IMG/VR virus record: IMGVR_UViG_2563366928_000012
Coordinates: 1 to 39,483 of that record
From: a virus
Taxonomy: Duplodnaviria; Heunggongvirae; Uroviricota; Caudoviricetes
DNA: 39,483 bases
Reading direction: 5' to 3' (one strand)
Below are positions 30,920 through 35,294 of this stretch, piece by piece (position 1 is the first letter of the stretch; every line of letters starts with the position of its first letter). A program made the position numbers and the translations under genes. The notes beneath the pieces were generated by a model. It had not been told where the DNA came from. It ran no database searches and saw only the letters and a list, made by a program, of their open reading frames with translations.

Positions 30920-31477
30920 TTGGCAAAAATAGATGATTATCAGCCAAGCCAAGTAGAAGTTGATAAAGTACTTTATTGTAAAAAAATAGTTAACTTTTCT
31001 GGCGTTAAATGGAAACAGAAACCAAGTCGCTCTGATATGTGGCTACAAGCTCATATCATCCCCTTGGATGAGGATTGTATACCTATACAAGGGCTAAAGT
31101 TTGAACTGAAATGGAAACCAGATCAGGATTCAGAACCTGATGACCCGATTTCTTACCCTAAAATAAATATTATTGCTTTCTATCATAACAAGAGGGTTTT
31201 CGCGGTAGATACCTATCACTTTGACAAACACACGAATAGTTACAAGGTCGATCATCCGAAGTACCAAGATATCATTTACGGTGCTCACTACCATGTATAC
31301 TATGAAGAAGCTGGATACTATAGTGATAGAATAGCGTTTCCAATCGAAGATGACATAAACCCAGATGACCTGGTAGGGTATTGGAATTACTTCTGTAAAC
31401 ATCTGAACATAACTTACTCTGGGAGAATACCTTTACCGCTTGAAGATGAGTCGGGGCAAATGGGGTTTGGAATATGA
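30920..31477 (+). CDS. Hypothetical protein A of AT-rich two-gene operon downstream of cI (candidate exclusion/defence gene)
   Basis: 185 aa, Tyr/His/Asp-rich, no recognised domain; possible D...E-x-K motif (PLDED...KFELK). Stop overlaps next gene start (ATGA). Confidence 0.55.
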   Translation: MAKIDDYQPSQVEVDKVLYCKKIVNFSGVKWKQKPSRSDMWLQAHIIPLDEDCIPIQGLKFELKWKPDQDSEPDDPISYPKINIIAFYHNKRVFAVDTYHFDKHTNSYKVDHPKYQDIIYGAHYHVYYEEAGYYSDRIAFPIEDDINPDDLVGYWNYFCKHLNITYSGRIPLPLEDESGQMGFGI

Positions 31478-32226
31478 TGTGCTCAACAGTGATCTCACAA
31501 CTAGGTTTCGAATGCCATCCAATAGGCAAGACCTTGAGAATTATCAGTCCATTCACTTACTGTGATGATGGAGAGCATGTCGGTGCCTTTATCCGTGAAG
31601 TCAATGGTAGGTATTTAGTTAGTGACAGATGCGATGCCTTAATGAATATGGAGGCAAGAGGGATCTCGCTTACCAAAAAACGACTTGATGAGATACGACA
31701 ATTACTGCTTAAAGAAGGCGCAGAACTCAATGCTCGAGGAGAAATCATTGCTTGGGCAACAGAAAAGGATGTCGGTGCGATTACATCGAACATAATTAGA
31801 GCTGGTATACTCGCATCAACTTTGTCGTTAGACTGGTATCAGCCAGTTCAAGCTGAAAAGTTTGAAAGTATGGTTATTGATTATCTATATCACACAGAGC
31901 TTAGAGACGCACTTTCTCTTCGTGAAAACGTATATGGCTTGAGTGGACATCAAATTACCGTCCCTGTAACAATAAAAACCGACATACCTAAATACGTTTT
32001 TACATCAAGCGTGAAACACGGAGGAAGCTGGAATAGTGCTTACTCATTGCTTGGGAAACTAATTGATCTTAAAGCTTCAAGTGAGGAGTATAACAACAGA
32101 TTTGTTGTTATAGACAGCGAAGCAATTGGTGATCAAATGCAACAACTCTCCTTACTCTTCCATGAATCAAGCCAAGTTCTACCATTCTCCAAAAGAGAGA
32201 CTTGGATTAAGAGACTTGCAGCATAA
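31474..32226 (+). CDS. Hypothetical protein B of AT-rich two-gene operon downstream of cI (candidate exclusion/defence gene)
   Basis: 250 aa, no recognised motif; translationally coupled to gene A; followed by an intrinsic terminator. Confidence 0.55.
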   Translation: MMCSTVISQLGFECHPIGKTLRIISPFTYCDDGEHVGAFIREVNGRYLVSDRCDALMNMEARGISLTKKRLDEIRQLLLKEGAELNARGEIIAWATEKDVGAITSNIIRAGILASTLSLDWYQPVQAEKFESMVIDYLYHTELRDALSLRENVYGLSGHQITVPVTIKTDIPKYVFTSSVKHGGSWNSAYSLLGKLIDLKASSEEYNNRFVVIDSEAIGDQMQQLSLLFHESSQVLPFSKRETWIKRLAA

Positions 32227-32231
32227 TACAA

Positions 32232-32258
32232 CCCGGCCTCAGCGCCGGGTTTTCTTTG
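32232..32258 (+). terminator. Intrinsic terminator ending the cI operon (tIMM-like)
   Basis: CCCGGC-CTCA-GCGCCGGG then TTTTCTTT. Confidence 0.6.
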
Positions 32259-32565: not shown

Positions 32566-32662
32566 ATCACCCAACCACATAAGCTGTGGGATGCAATGCC
32601 GAAGCAACCGTCTCAGGAGGAGCTTCGAGATTGCATCGCCAAAGTTTATTCGGGAGGAATCC

Positions 32663-32935
32663 ATGTCCAGAAAAACAGAATTTAAAGGCACCGCAGCTTC
32701 TCGCCGTAGAGCTCGTCGCGCAAATCTGCAAAGTCAGGAGGCGATCAGCTCCGACAAGCTACACAGGCCAACCCCTTCACGAGTGGTCTTGCAATGCAAG
32801 CGCAAACCAGCAATGAGAGCAGAAGTAATAACACTGACAACGTTGACCAGAAAATATGAAGGTTCAACTTGTCTTCCGAACGTAGCTCTTTACGCGGCAG
32901 GCTACCGGAAATCCAAACAACTGACAGCAAGATGA
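32663..32935 (+). CDS. N: Antiterminator N (P22 gp24-like)
   Basis: Arg-rich motif GTAASRRRARRANLQ near N-terminus; C-terminus NVALYAAGYRKSKQLTAR matches recalled P22 N tail; GGAGG RBS. Confidence 0.75.
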   Translation: MSRKTEFKGTAASRRRARRANLQSQEAISSDKLHRPTPSRVVLQCKRKPAMRAEVITLTTLTRKYEGSTCLPNVALYAAGYRKSKQLTAR

Positions 32936-32993
32936 CTTGTGTTGGTCGCCAGAAAATGAAATTAGGCAGCAAACCACTTATTTGAGGTGAGAT

Positions 32994-33080
32994 ATGGAAG
33001 AAGAATTTGAAGAGTTCGAAGAGCATCCTCAGGATGTGATGGAACAATACCAGGACTATCCGTATGACTACGACTATTGA
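32994..33080 (+). CDS. Candidate 28-aa highly acidic aromatic micro-protein
   Basis: GAGGTGA RBS then ATG; encodes MEEEFEEFEEHPQDVMEQYQDYPYDYDY; below the ORF-track length cutoff. Confidence 0.35.
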   Translation: MEEEFEEFEEHPQDVMEQYQDYPYDYDY

Positions 33081-33150
33081 TAAGAATCAATGGTGTGGAC
33101 AATACGAACGACGACAATGATTGCCAGAGAACTTGGTAAACAGAACAACA

Positions 33151-33178
33151 AGGCTGCCTGATGGTGGCCTTTATTTTT
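33151..33178 (+). terminator. Candidate weak intrinsic terminator
   Basis: AGGCTGCC-TGAT-GGTGGCCT (two wobble pairs) then TTATTTTTGG. Confidence 0.3.
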
Positions 33179-33203
33179 GGCATAAACAACAGAGGCGAAG
33201 ACG

Positions 33204-33398
33204 TTGACAGTTGGAAAGTCATATTCAACTAAAAACGGAAAAACATTTAGTTGTGAAAAAGATATTGGAGAAATAGACACTATCTTTCCATTTGGTGGGT
33301 GGGTATACAATTCTGATGGAAGCAAAGACAGATTTGCATATTACACCAGAGGAGGTGCGTATAAACTAACCAAATCAGAATATGATTTAATTATTTAG
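33204..33398 (+). CDS. Small AT-rich hypothetical protein
   Basis: 64 aa ORF; apparent TTG start after AGAGG. Confidence 0.3.
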   Translation: MTVGKSYSTKNGKTFSCEKDIGEIDTIFPFGGWVYNSDGSKDRFAYYTRGGAYKLTKSEYDLII

Positions 33399-33528: not shown

Positions 33529-33589
33529 ATGCATACCAATAACGCTTCACTCGAGGCGTTTTTCGTTATGTATAAATAAGGAGCACACC

Positions 33590-33730
33590 ATGCAATATGC
33601 CATTGCAGGGTGGCCTGTTGCTGGCTGCCCTTCCGAATCTTTACTTGAACGAATCACCCGTAAATTACGTGACGGATGGAAACGCCTTATCGACATACTT
33701 AATCAGCCAGGAGTCCCCAAAAATGGATAA
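33590..33730 (+). CDS. Small hypothetical protein
   Basis: 46 aa (MQYAIAGWPVAGCPSESLL...), TAAGGAG RBS. Confidence 0.4.
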   Translation: MQYAIAGWPVAGCPSESLLERITRKLRDGWKRLIDILNQPGVPKNG

Positions 33731-34029: not shown

Positions 34030-34710
34030 ATGGGAACTGCGACATTAATACTCGGTGAATCTGGCACCGGAAAATCAACCAGCATGAGAAATATCAATCC
34101 AGAGGAAGCAATACTTATAAAACCAATAGGCAAGCCGCTTCCATTTAAATCAAAAGACTGGCTGGCATGGGATGCCAGAGCAAAAAAAGGAACCGTAGTT
34201 ACCACTGACAAATGGGACGTAATAGTTGCCGTAATTAAGCGTGCTCACGAATACGGGAAAAGAATCGTTATTGTTGATGACTTCCAGTATGTGATGAGCA
34301 ATGAGTTTATGCGCCGCTCAGAAGAAAAATCGTTTGATAAATTTACTGAGATAGGCCGCCACGCATGGGAGGTGATTAAGGCTGCACAGGATGCACCTGA
34401 TGACCTGAGAGTCTATTTTCTTGCACACACCGAAGAAACCCCTATGGGGCGTGTGAAAATGAAGACTATCGGCAAAATGCTGGACGAGAAAATCACTGTC
34501 GAAGGCATGTTTACTATAGTTCTTCGCACCCTTACCCGCGATGACCAGTTCTTTTTCACCACGAAAAACAACGGTGCAGACACTGTAAAATCCCCAATGG
34601 GAATGTTTGATTCTAATGAGATTGATAACGATCTCTCTTTCGTCGATGCCACTGTTTGTGATTACTACGGCATCAATAATGTTCATCAAATTAAGGAAAA
34701 CGCCGCATGA
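34030..34710 (+). CDS. P-loop ATPase, Sak4-like (RecA-fold single-strand annealing/recombination protein)
   Basis: 226 aa; Walker A GESGTGKST at residues 9-17, Walker B-like IVIVDD; position equals the lambda exo/bet recombination slot. Confidence 0.5.
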   Translation: MGTATLILGESGTGKSTSMRNINPEEAILIKPIGKPLPFKSKDWLAWDARAKKGTVVTTDKWDVIVAVIKRAHEYGKRIVIVDDFQYVMSNEFMRRSEEKSFDKFTEIGRHAWEVIKAAQDAPDDLRVYFLAHTEETPMGRVKMKTIGKMLDEKITVEGMFTIVLRTLTRDDQFFFTTKNNGADTVKSPMGMFDSNEIDNDLSFVDATVCDYYGINNVHQIKENAA

Positions 34711-35294
34711 GCAACGTGATTTTTACTTATAACGAAGAAGCAGCACTGACCGCAGGGCAAGGTGGTTTTATTAACGAAACTGGTGCTCATATCATTACCA
34801 TTACTGAAGCAGAACTAAAGCAATCAGAAAAAGGAGCCAAATTTATTGAGTTTTCTGGCGAATCTGACGACGGACGTAAAATCCAATATCTTAGCGTCTG
34901 TGTTCAGAAAAATGACGGAACGGAAAACAAATTTGGCGCAAATGTCGTTCACGCCATGATGGGGTGTGCCGGGATTGGACAATTAACGCAACATATGGTT
35001 TCCGCCAGTAAATTTGTTGCTCCTGAGTTTCATGGAAAGAAAATCGGGTTAGTGCTCCAGAAAGTATTAACCACAAACAAAAAGACTGGCGCAGACAGCT
35101 ACCAGATGGAAATACGCATCCCGTTTATTGCACAAACAGGTCAAACCCTTAAAGAAAAGGCGGAAGGCAAGCAACCAGAAACTATCGCCAACATGGTTGC
35201 CAGCCTCAAAGATAAAGACAATCGCTCTAAAAACGTAAGCCATAATCATGCAGATGATTATGGTTACAGCCAGAACGATTACCCTCCTTTCTGA
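34707..35294 (+). CDS. Sak4-associated protein, possible ssDNA-binding protein with acidic C-terminal tail
   Basis: 195 aa ending ADDYGYSQNDYPPF, reminiscent of SSB C-terminal tips; overlaps ATPase stop. Confidence 0.35.
   Translation: MSNVIFTYNEEAALTAGQGGFINETGAHIITITEAELKQSEKGAKFIEFSGESDDGRKIQYLSVCVQKNDGTENKFGANVVHAMMGCAGIGQLTQHMVSASKFVAPEFHGKKIGLVLQKVLTTNKKTGADSYQMEIRIPFIAQTGQTLKEKAEGKQPETIANMVASLKDKDNRSKNVSHNHADDYGYSQNDYPPF

What the first reader, a model, noticed from the sequence alone, without database searches (positions are those of the whole stretch)
32994..33080. Highly acidic aromatic 28-codon micro-ORF with a strong RBS just downstream of N
GAGGTGA followed at good spacing by ATG opens a frame encoding MEEEFEEFEEHPQDVMEQYQDYPYDYDY, which is dominated by acidic and aromatic residues. 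This composition is typical of DNA mimics or SSB-tail mimics, and the location is where lambda encodes Ral and other host-modulating factors. It is missing from the ORF track only because of length.
Basis: seen in the sequence. Interest (0 to 1): 0.5.

Follow-up and report, generated by a model that had tools for sequence, protein, structure and literature searches.

The report
Lambda orf28: conserved acidic micro-protein
The 28-codon ORF is an exact copy of phage lambda's annotated but uncharacterised gene orf28; comparison with relatives shows it is a real, selected micro-protein gene that sits joined to either of two unrelated anti-restriction genes (ral or lar), so it is a known ORF with an interesting unexplored role.

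Summary
GAGGTGA (32984-32990) is followed by an ATG ORF at 32994-33080 encoding MEEEFEEFEEHPQDVMEQYQDYPYDYDY, 59 nt after the N stop. It is not new: the peptide is 100% identical to lambda orf28 (lambdap47, NP_040623.1; phrog_16060, function unknown). In lambda its last 17 nt overlap the start of ral. In this window ral is dead (103-nt frameshifting internal deletion) while orf28 is intact.

Three independent comparisons show purifying selection on the peptide:
- Nine divergent ral-linked loci: pN/pS 0.15; variable sites by codon position 3/6/14.
- Lar-linked copies with no ral: pN/pS 0.05.
- Delta-ral lineage: 4/70 variable sites in orf28 against 18/83 in the ral remnant.

Indels are in frame and a Shine-Dalgarno sequence is always present. 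About a dozen uncultivated lambdoid contigs place the same micro-ORF immediately after a Lar-family gene, which is unrelated to Ral but has the same function.

My best reading is a translated acidic effector allied to type I restriction alleviation; its target is unknown. The DNA-mimic and SSB-tail-mimic ideas are untested and find no support in sequence. Verdict: an already known ORF, with moderate interest.

The parts
32591..32935 (+). Antitermination protein N gene (933W/VT2-Sakai type; the likely true start may be Met25 at 32663). Context: orf28 lies 59 nt after its stop.
   Evidence: PF25694 N_peptide 111.9 bits; phrog_271; annotated N in VT2-Sakai, YYZ-2008 and PhiR11_1 at the homologous position.
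32984..32990 (+). Shine-Dalgarno sequence GAGGTGA of orf28; the GAGG core ends 6 nt before the ATG.
   Evidence: Sequence. SD-like purine tracts are kept upstream of the micro-ORF in different upstream contexts and in all divergent loci. The same SD plus ATGGAA also opens an unrelated 83-aa ORF in VT2-Sakai.
32994..33080 (+). orf28 coding sequence, 28 codons plus TGA; peptide MEEEFEEFEEHPQDVMEQYQDYPYDYDY. The conserved core is ..F[DE][EDQ]HPxD[VD]MxQYQDYP[YF][DE][YFH]D[YF]. An internal Met16 (33039) corresponds to the start of the 13-codon Salmonella variant.
   Evidence: identical to lambda orf28; phrog_16060, E=7e-19, positions 1-28 of 28; selection tests.
33064..33120 (+). 5' remnant of ral: its ATG lies inside orf28 in the +1 frame with a 17-nt overlap. 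It reads MTTTIDKNQWCG, then frameshifts to QYERRQ*. A 103-nt deletion between GGRCAAT repeats has its junction after 33103.
   Evidence: Alignment to lambda and PhiR11_1; exact deletion computed; same allele in other phages and in at least 12 E. coli genomes.
33090..33161 (+). 3' remnant of ral (..IRTTTMIARELGKQNNKAA*), now a 23-codon ORF out of frame with the 5' remnant. PGAP annotates it as 'antirestriction Ral family protein' in E. coli ACN001.
33150..33180 (+). Intrinsic-terminator-like hairpin AAGGCTGCCTGATGGTGGCCTT plus TATTTTT. It overlaps the ral stop and closes the N-orf28-(ral) segment. A homologous hairpin directly follows the micro-ORF in the Lar-linked loci.
   Evidence: window; lambda homologue; GGCTGCCTAACCCGCAGCC plus T-run after the stand-alone micro-ORF.

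Best explanation
The ORF is phage lambda's orf28. SHOWN: it is a genuine protein-coding gene for a 22-28-residue acidic, aromatic micro-protein. It sits in the early leftward (pL) operon after N, has its own strong ribosome-binding site, and no intrinsic terminator separates it from N. The peptide sequence is under purifying selection in every genomic context examined. The gene is physically joined, usually by overlapping stop and start codons, to one of two unrelated type I restriction-alleviation genes: it lies upstream of ral (17-nt overlap) or downstream of lar (ATGGGTGA / ATGGATGA overlaps). It also persists, still constrained, where ral has been destroyed, as in this window. INFERRED: it is translated early and, where a partner is present, co-translated with it. 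It acts as a small polyanionic effector allied to alleviation of type IA (EcoKI-family) restriction, most plausibly by binding a basic or aromatic-binding surface on the host restriction-modification complex or on another host defence or DNA-handling protein. Because it survives without Ral or Lar, it is probably not merely their chaperone. Its molecular target is unknown.
For: Identity: 100% to lambda orf28; phrog_16060. Coding tests: (1) 48-nt core upstream of the ral ATG in 9 divergent loci (Escherichia, Cronobacter, Providencia, Proteus, Pantoea, Erwinia, Kluyvera): variable sites at codon positions 1/2/3 = 3/6/14, Fisher p=1.5e-4; pooled pN/pS 0.154 against 6.75 and 1.21 in the other forward frames; the one reverse frame with aligned wobble is full of stops. 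(2) Lar-linked copies with no ral overlap: 0/3/13, pN/pS 0.052. (3) Ten delta-ral alleles: 4/70 variable sites in orf28 against 18/83 in the dead ral remnant, p=0.005. Length variants of 22, 25, 26, 28, 30 and 56 codons all differ by in-frame indels. An SD is always present. The SD-ATGGAA is a module junction shared with an unrelated ORF in Stx phages. Linkage: of 119 IMG/VR loci found by the orf28 core alone, about 95 are followed by intact ral, about 10 by delta-ral and 3 by no ral. About 12 unique loci have Lar (PF14354 36.6 bits, phrog_599) immediately upstream, and this persists at 65% Lar identity. Ral's known action on type IA enzymes: PMC12707154, PMC3874165. Anecdote: a ral clone whose primer starts at orf28 Met16, so lacking codons 1-15 and the SD, had 'little to no effect' on EcoKI, whereas an earlier inducible clone gave 800-fold rescue.
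Against: No direct evidence of translation was accessible; the lambda ribosome-profiling paper is not held. orf28 knock-down has no plaque phenotype on a host without type I restriction (PMC10695390), and it was not tested on restricting hosts. ral occurs without orf28 in Citrobacter (an unrelated 66-aa ORF is coupled to it instead), in Kluyvera georgiana, and with only a 13-codon version in some Salmonella prophages, so Ral does not strictly need it. Linkage could partly reflect shared descent of one cassette: the terminator after the Lar-linked copy is homologous to the ral terminator. The selection tests use few, phylogenetically related sequences. There is no similarity to any protein of known function, and the AF2 model of a natural orf28-Ral fusion was uninformative (mean pLDDT 56).
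Confidence: 0.5

Rival explanations
1. Obligate partner of the zinc-ribbon alleviation proteins. Orf28 binds Ral or Lar stoichiometrically (as chaperone, solubiliser or antitoxin-like neutraliser) and has no activity of its own. Gene overlap ensures 1:1 synthesis.
For: Overlapping stop and start codons with ral and with lar, in either gene order. This is typical of interacting pairs and of type II toxin-antitoxin layout (small acidic protein plus small Cys4 protein). Natural in-frame orf28::ral fusions exist (P0001, 76 member sequences; P0011). The Rac Lar homologue RalR is reported to be a toxic DNase (my knowledge, not checked here).
Against: orf28 stays intact and constrained in the delta-ral lineage, and the window has no Lar-like CP[FWY]CG protein. 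ral exists without orf28 in several lineages. Ral is only about +3 in net charge by my count. The AF2 fusion model gave no confident docking.
Confidence: 0.2
2. Translational-coupling device. orf28 exists to load ribosomes, through its strong SD, onto the weaker ral start that lies inside it. The peptide is a by-product.
For: 17-nt overlap with the orf28 stop 14 nt past the ral AUG. Strong SD on orf28 against AGGA at 8 nt for ral. In lambda a -16 kcal/mol hairpin begins just after the ral AUG and contains the orf28 stop. Citrobacter ral is likewise coupled (ATGA) to another upstream ORF. The 2022 ral clone lacking the orf28 SD and N-terminus worked poorly.
Against: Amino-acid-level purifying selection is not expected for a mere ribosome ramp. 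In about 12 Lar-linked loci the micro-ORF is the last gene before a terminator, with nothing downstream to couple. It is conserved after ral is destroyed. The hairpin is not conserved in divergent loci. Coupling may still be a secondary role.
Confidence: 0.1
3. SSB-tail or nucleic-acid mimic aimed at host replication, recombination or repair proteins, unrelated to restriction. Its place next to ral or lar merely reflects the accessory-gene slot after N.
For: Composition: 43% D/E, 25% aromatic. D-Y-P-Y resembles D-I-P-F. An aromatic C-terminal residue after Asp is conserved (D-Y or D-F-COOH) even where there is no overlap constraint. It persists independently of ral. The pL operon is rich in recombination genes.
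Against: The DYPY motif is internal, four residues from the end, whereas SSB tips act through the terminal Phe carboxylate (established knowledge). No sequence match to any solved structure. It does not explain the repeated codon-overlap linkage to two different anti-restriction genes. 28 residues can mimic only a few base pairs of DNA.
Confidence: 0.12
4. A chance ORF kept only because the surrounding DNA is nearly identical among lambdoid phages.
For: Short ORFs are abundant. Most copies in E. coli and phage records are 95-100% identical in DNA.
Against: The frame, SD and peptide core are kept at saturating synonymous divergence (pS 0.9) across seven genera, with in-frame indels. All other frames show stops or pN/pS of at least 1.
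Confidence: 0.02

Closest known systems
Bacteriophage lambda orf28 (lambdap47, NP_040623.1; PHROG phrog_16060, 'unknown function')
   Same: Identical 28-aa peptide; same SD-ATG arrangement; same position downstream of N and overlapping the ral start; same terminator after ral.
   Different: In the window the N module is of the 933W/VT2-Sakai type with no sieB between N and orf28, and the adjoining ral carries a 103-nt frameshifting deletion.
Ocr (T7 gp0.3) and ArdA: acidic DNA-mimic inhibitors of type I restriction enzymes
   Same: Strongly acidic, phage- or mobile-element-encoded, expressed early, in an anti-type-I-restriction context (PMC9410887; PMC3874165).
   Different: Ocr and ArdA are folded proteins of about 116-166 aa that dimerise to mimic about 24 bp or more of DNA. 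Orf28 has 28 aa, no Pfam match and no solved homologue. It could at most cover a small basic patch.
T4 Stp, a 26-residue phage peptide acting on the type IC enzyme EcoprrI (my knowledge, not checked here)
   Same: Precedent that a phage peptide under 30 aa can target a type I restriction-modification complex.
   Different: No sequence resemblance. Stp is not acidic and is not linked to ral or lar.
C-terminal tips of single-strand DNA-binding proteins (E. coli SSB ..DFDDDIPF; T7 gp2.5 acidic tail ending in Phe)
   Same: An acidic run plus Pro and aromatic residues, with a conserved aromatic last residue.
   Different: The Pro-aromatic motif is internal, the terminal sequence is D-Y-D-Y rather than I-P-F, and it is a free peptide rather than a tail. 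No binding data.
Translationally coupled upstream ORFs and leader peptides
   Same: Short ORF with a strong SD whose stop overlaps the next gene's start (ral).
   Different: The peptide sequence is itself under selection, and the ORF also occurs as the last gene before a terminator (Lar-linked loci), so it is not only a leader.

Membership tests
Lambda Orf28 family (phrog_16060) | Full-length sequence match to the family profile or to lambda orf28 | tested here: met
   100% identical to NP_040623.1; phrog_16060 E=7.1e-19, residues 1-28 on profile positions 1-28 of 28.
Lambda Orf28 family (phrog_16060) | Location in the pL operon downstream of N, with the stop codon 14 nt inside the ral start (+1 frame) | tested here: met
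   N ends at 32935; orf28 is 32994-33080; the ral ATG is at 33064. ral itself is a deletion remnant here.
Lambda Orf28 family (phrog_16060) | Own Shine-Dalgarno sequence and ATG or GTG start | tested here: met
   GAGGTGA-GAT-ATG; conserved in relatives.
Lambda Orf28 family (phrog_16060) | The peptide is actually translated | not testable with these tools
   The ribosome-profiling paper for lambda is not held; only evolutionary evidence for coding.
DNA-mimic anti-restriction proteins (Ocr, ArdA) | Homology to the Ocr or ArdA families | tested here: not met
   No Pfam, NCBIfam or PDB sequence hit.
DNA-mimic anti-restriction proteins (Ocr, ArdA) | A folded surface of carboxylates spanning a type I enzyme's DNA site (about 24 bp; over 100 aa, dimer) | tested here: not met
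   Only 28 residues. The AF2 model of the fusion gives a low-confidence helix (pLDDT 46-54).
DNA-mimic anti-restriction proteins (Ocr, ArdA) | Binds and inhibits EcoKI-type enzymes | not testable with these tools
   Needs biochemistry or EOP assays.
SSB C-terminal-tip mimics | Acidic stretch ending in ..[DE]-[IFL]-P-F-COOH, with the terminal aromatic carboxylate as the binding determinant | tested here: not met
   The C-terminus is ..DYPYDYDY; Pro is at -6; D-Y-P-Y is internal. A terminal aromatic residue is conserved, so only a loose resemblance remains.
SSB C-terminal-tip mimics | Competes for SSB-partner pockets | not testable with these tools
   Needs peptide binding assays.
Pure translational-coupling leader ORF | Stop overlaps or abuts the downstream start | tested here: met
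   17-nt overlap with ral in lambda and relatives.
Pure translational-coupling leader ORF | No constraint on the encoded amino acids; always followed by a coupled gene | tested here: not met
   pN/pS 0.15 and 0.05. In Lar-linked loci a terminator follows directly.
Type II toxin-antitoxin-like pair (acidic antitoxin with Ral or Lar) | The partner is toxic alone and the antitoxin is never lost while the toxin is kept | tested here: inconclusive
   ral occurs without orf28 in Citrobacter and K. georgiana, which argues against this. The toxicity of Ral was not testable.

The most novel reading that the evidence does not exclude
Orf28 is an unrecognised third player of lambdoid type I anti-restriction. 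It would be the smallest known anti-restriction or anti-defence protein, co-translated with Ral or Lar but active on its own, and systematically missed because it is 3 nt shorter than gene-caller cut-offs. Its omission from 'ral' constructs would explain the discrepant strengths reported for Ral.
Probability: 0.3. Interest if true: 0.7.

Novelty: already known. Interest (0 to 1): 0.4.

Why it matters
As an object, this is lambda's orf28, annotated in the lambda reference record and filed as a PHROG of unknown function. For the genome scan it is therefore a rediscovery. What the follow-up adds is evidence that this neglected ORF is a real gene:
- It shows frame-specific purifying selection across at least seven enterobacterial genera.
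- It is present in about 16% of complete E. coli genomes.
- It is codon-overlapped with either of two non-homologous restriction-alleviation genes (ral, lar).
- It is retained when ral is destroyed.

If the peptide takes part in defeating type I restriction, it would revise the one-protein picture of Ral and Lar. It would also give a chemically synthesisable 28-mer probe for the EcoKI decision between methylation and restriction. More generally, it shows that anti-defence micro-proteins hide just under the 90-nt annotation threshold.

Tried and rejected
- tblastn of the peptide against phage records found nothing, because of the low-complexity filter and short query.
- The search for homologous proteins refuses queries under 40 aa. 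A concatenated two-member query returned only frameshift fusions, chimeras and N-terminally extended calls of the same ORF, plus one genuine 56-aa variant. No larger protein carries the motif as a tail.
- phmmer against PDB gave no hit at E up to 10. Pfam and NCBIfam gave none.
- The species-representative genome scan for Ral mostly returned lambda DNA contaminating unrelated assemblies, so divergent loci had to be fetched protein by protein.
- A hairpin masking the ral start is strong in lambda but not conserved in divergent loci, so I rejected it as general evidence for coupling by unfolding.
- AlphaFold2 of the natural orf28::Ral fusion P0001 gave mean pLDDT 55.8 and pTM 0.37, which is uninformative.
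- The lambda ribosome-profiling paper (Liu et al. 2013) is not in the library. Full-text searches for the peptide string and for 'lambdap47' found no functional study.
- Rfam shows no RNA family over the ORF.
- I considered and set aside the idea that the N-terminal acidic run acts as a ribosome-destabilising regulatory leader (MgtL-like). The ORF is the terminal gene in Lar-linked loci, and the C-terminal half is the most conserved part.

Full report
**1. Observation**

The sequence is as described. GAGGTGA lies at 32984-32990, followed three bases later by ATG at 32994. The frame stays open for 28 codons to TGA at 33078-33080 and encodes MEEEFEEFEEHPQDVMEQYQDYPYDYDY. The N-family antiterminator gene (PF25694, 111.9 bits; phrog_271) ends at 32935. 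A terminator-like hairpin with a T-run lies at 33150-33180, and no terminator-like site lies between N and the ORF. A 28-codon ORF is unremarkable on its own: one search lists 59 ORFs of at least 20 aa in 3.5 kb. The case therefore rests on comparison with relatives.

**2. Identity**

The peptide is 100% identical to lambda orf28 (lambdap47, NP_040623.1; NC_001416 complement 34271..34357). In lambda its last 17 nt overlap the start of ral (34087..34287). It matches PHROG phrog_16060, 'unknown function', over its full length at E=7e-19. It has no Pfam, NCBIfam or PDB match.

In the accessible literature orf28 appears only in two forms. One is a 'hypothetical protein' that is non-essential in a CRISPRi screen on a host lacking type I restriction (PMC10695390). 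The other is a set of strain genotypes carrying delta-orf28-ral (PMC2327257). Searches for the peptide string or the locus tag found no functional study.

**3. Local anatomy in the window**

Alignment with PhiR11_1 and lambda shows that ral has lost 103 nt between two GGRCAAT repeats, with the junction after 33103. This leaves:
- an 18-codon 5' remnant, MTTTIDKNQWCGQYERRQ* (33064-33120);
- an out-of-frame 3' remnant, ..IRTTTMIARELGKQNNKAA* (33090-33161).

The Cys4 core of Ral is gone, so Ral is dead here while orf28 is intact. The same junction occurs uninterrupted in at least a dozen complete E. coli genomes, in phage E212 and in about 10 of 119 IMG/VR loci. PGAP annotates the 23-codon remnant as 'antirestriction Ral family protein' and does not annotate orf28. 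The window contains no Lar-like CP[FWY]CG protein.

**4. Is it a gene?**

Divergent ral loci were fetched through Ral homologues of 65-80% identity. A micro-ORF in the same position and frame is present in seven genera:

| Source | Peptide |
|---|---|
| Cronobacter | MEEEFEEFEEHPQDVMEQYQDYPYEYDY |
| Providencia | MEEDIEEFDEHPDDDMRQYQDYPYEYDY |
| Proteus | MEDDIEEFDEHPDDDMSQYQDYPYEHDY |
| Pantoea | MDEEEFDEHPADDMSQYQDYPYEFDY |
| Erwinia | MEEFDQHPDDDMSQYQDYRYEY |
| Kluyvera | similar |
| Unnamed metagenomic phages | similar |

Lengths of 22, 25, 26, 28 and 30 codons differ by in-frame indels in the acidic N-terminal part.

There are three selection tests.

Test 1 used the 48-nt core that lies wholly upstream of the ral ATG, in nine loci.
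- Variable sites at codon positions 1/2/3 are 3/6/14 (Fisher p=1.5e-4).
- Pooled pN/pS is 0.154 with pS about 0.9, against 6.75 and 1.21 in the other forward frames.
- The only reverse frame whose wobble position coincides is full of stops.

Test 2 used six distinct Lar-linked copies that have no ral at all.
- Variable sites are 0/3/13 and pN/pS is 0.052.
- This includes the C-terminal YDYDY part, which in lambda is confounded by the ral overlap.

Test 3 used ten delta-ral alleles.
- orf28 has 4/70 variable sites, against 18/83 in the ral remnant (p=0.005).

Other supporting points:
- An SD-like tract precedes every copy.
- In Stx phages (VT2-Sakai, YYZ-2008) the same SD-ATGGAA opens an unrelated 83-86-aa ORF (phrog_2471) that ends at the same terminator. 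The orf28 initiation region is therefore a module boundary used by real genes.
- Among 80 near-identical lambda-type loci the recurrent polymorphisms are synonymous (Pro12, Pro23), and replacements are singletons.

Caveats: the alignments are short, the sequences are related by descent, and the pooled pairwise counts are not independent. However, three separate data sets agree.

**5. Architectures and distribution**

- **A: micro-ORF then ral, 17-nt overlap.** This is the common form. About 95 of 119 loci found by the orf28 core alone have it. It is present in 883 of 5,426 complete E. coli genomes and in 117 phage records, including lambda, P22, Sf101, HK140 and BTP1.
- **A': micro-ORF plus dead ral.** This is the window's form.
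- **B: Lar-family gene, then micro-ORF, then terminator.** The Lar-family gene scores PF14354 36.6 bits against a cut-off of 28.6, and matches phrog_599. The Lar stop lies inside the micro-ORF start (GTGGGTGA, ATGGGTGA, ATGGATGA). There are about a dozen unique loci, all downstream of an N-like gene. The arrangement persists when Lar is only 80% or 65% identical (L265, L266). This form is absent from the annotated phage and E. coli collections.
- **C: a 56-aa variant.** A Cys/His-containing N-terminal extension replaces the acidic run, but the core DDFDEHPADDMGQYQDYPYDYDY and the overlap with a divergent ral are kept.
- **D: a 13-codon version.** MNKYQEYPYGYDY corresponds to Met16 through the end, in some Salmonella prophages.

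ral without orf28 occurs in two places. In Citrobacter an unrelated 66-aa ORF is coupled to ral by ATGA. In Kluyvera georgiana ral starts directly after the SD. Natural one-base indels fuse orf28 to Ral (P0001, 76 member sequences).

**6. How it most likely works**

Shown: the ORF is coding, constrained, early-operon, and linked by codon overlap to two non-homologous proteins with the same reported function. That function is alleviation of type IA restriction, by turning the EcoKI methyltransferase into a de novo enzyme (PMC12707154; PMC3874165).

Inferred:
- The overlaps give coupled, roughly stoichiometric synthesis.
- The peptide (net charge about -12, 7 aromatic residues, conserved His-Pro, Met, QYQDYP and a terminal D-Y/F) acts as a small polyanionic ligand for a basic surface.
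- Because it persists under constraint without Ral or Lar, it probably has its own host target rather than being only a chaperone or a leader.

I favour a role allied to type I restriction alleviation, at about 0.5. Lower weights go to an obligate Ral/Lar partner (0.2), an SSB-tail or DNA mimic unrelated to restriction (0.12), a pure coupling device (0.1) and chance (0.02).

One literature observation fits a contribution of orf28 but is only anecdotal. The 2022 pRedCmRal construct was amplified with a primer that starts at orf28 Met16, so it lacked orf28 codons 1-15 and its SD. It had 'little to no effect' on EcoKI. An earlier inducible ral clone is quoted as giving 800-fold rescue. I could not determine what the earlier clone contained.

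The lambda mRNA has a stable hairpin just 3' of the ral AUG that includes the orf28 stop. It is not conserved in divergent loci. An AlphaFold2 model of the natural fusion was of low confidence.

**7. Comparison with known systems**

By every testable criterion it is a member of the lambda Orf28 / phrog_16060 family. It is not a member of the Ocr or ArdA families (no homology, and a quarter of their size). It does not meet the defining C-terminal motif of SSB tips. It resembles coupled leader ORFs in geometry but not in selection pattern. T4 Stp is a precedent for a peptide under 30 aa acting on a type I enzyme, but I recall this from memory and it is unrelated in sequence.

**8. Verdict**

- Observation: confirmed.
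The gene is real and in the right neighbourhood, but the mimic mechanism is unsupported.
- Novelty: already known (lambda orf28).
- Interest: 0.4. It is a rediscovery, but of an overlooked gene in the best-studied phage, now with clear evidence of function and a specific, testable link to anti-restriction.

Noticed in passing
window 33064-33161: ral is a pseudogene: a 103-nt deletion between GGRCAAT direct repeats removes the Cys4 core. The same allele circulates, and has itself diversified, in other phages and in at least 12 complete E. coli genomes. PGAP names the 23-codon remnant 'antirestriction Ral family protein'.
   Followed up: yes
L001 1935-2186 (VT2-Sakai orf20) and L003 1935-2195 (YYZ-2008): In Stx phages the orf28-ral cassette is replaced precisely, from the shared SD-ATGGAA to the shared ..NKAA*-terminator, by an unrelated 83-86-aa ORF (phrog_2471, unknown function). 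YYZ-2008 has an extra in-frame DDT repeat. This is a clean example of module exchange at a start codon.
   Followed up: partly
L085-L100, L103, L105, L106, L108 (genome-contig scan): Lambda ral DNA at 98-100% identity sits on short low-coverage contigs in assemblies of unrelated organisms (Nocardioides, Paenibacillus, Bradyrhizobium, Shewanella, Arthrobacter and others). This is almost certainly lambda control or ladder DNA contamination.
   Followed up: no
window 33577-33635 and 33590-33730: The lambda cIII thermoregulator RNA (RF01804, 88.5 bits) lies at the start of a cIII gene. The CIII here ends at ..QPGVPKNG (46 aa), which appears shorter than lambda CIII as I recall it.
   Followed up: no
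window 34030-35294: The recombination module is a Sak4-like ATPase (phrog_2872) plus an SSB (phrog_743), not lambda Red. The SSB ends in ..DDYGYSQNDYPPF, an acidic D-Y-P-P-F tip that loosely echoes the D-Y-P-Y of orf28.
   Followed up: no
window 32961-32970 and 33152-33162: In the MFE fold, UUAGGCAGC (between N and orf28) pairs with GCUGCCUGA, the 5' arm of the terminator hairpin (9-10 bp), competing with terminator formation. Both segments are kept in VT2-Sakai-type phages although the ORF between them differs. This may be chance.
   Followed up: no
P0001, P0005, P0011, P0103: Natural in-frame orf28::ral fusion proteins created by 1-nt or larger deletions. P0001 represents 76 member sequences. 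Whether any is functional is unknown.
   Followed up: partly
L110-L112 1304-1504 (Citrobacter): Where orf28 is absent, ral is instead coupled by an ATGA overlap to an unrelated 66-aa ORF (MAKITFGFCSAEKAHAVQKG..) with no family hit. This may be another candidate Ral-associated small protein.
   Followed up: no
window 33204-33398: A 64-aa ORF (phrog_15499, unknown function) follows the terminator. It is shared with PhiR11_1 and 2G7b, where it lies between ral and ea10.
   Followed up: no
window 31474-32226: A 250-aa DUF1828 protein (PF08861; phrog_1960) lies upstream of N, followed by a terminator-like hairpin at 32230-32251. The same family is seen upstream in L263.
   Followed up: no
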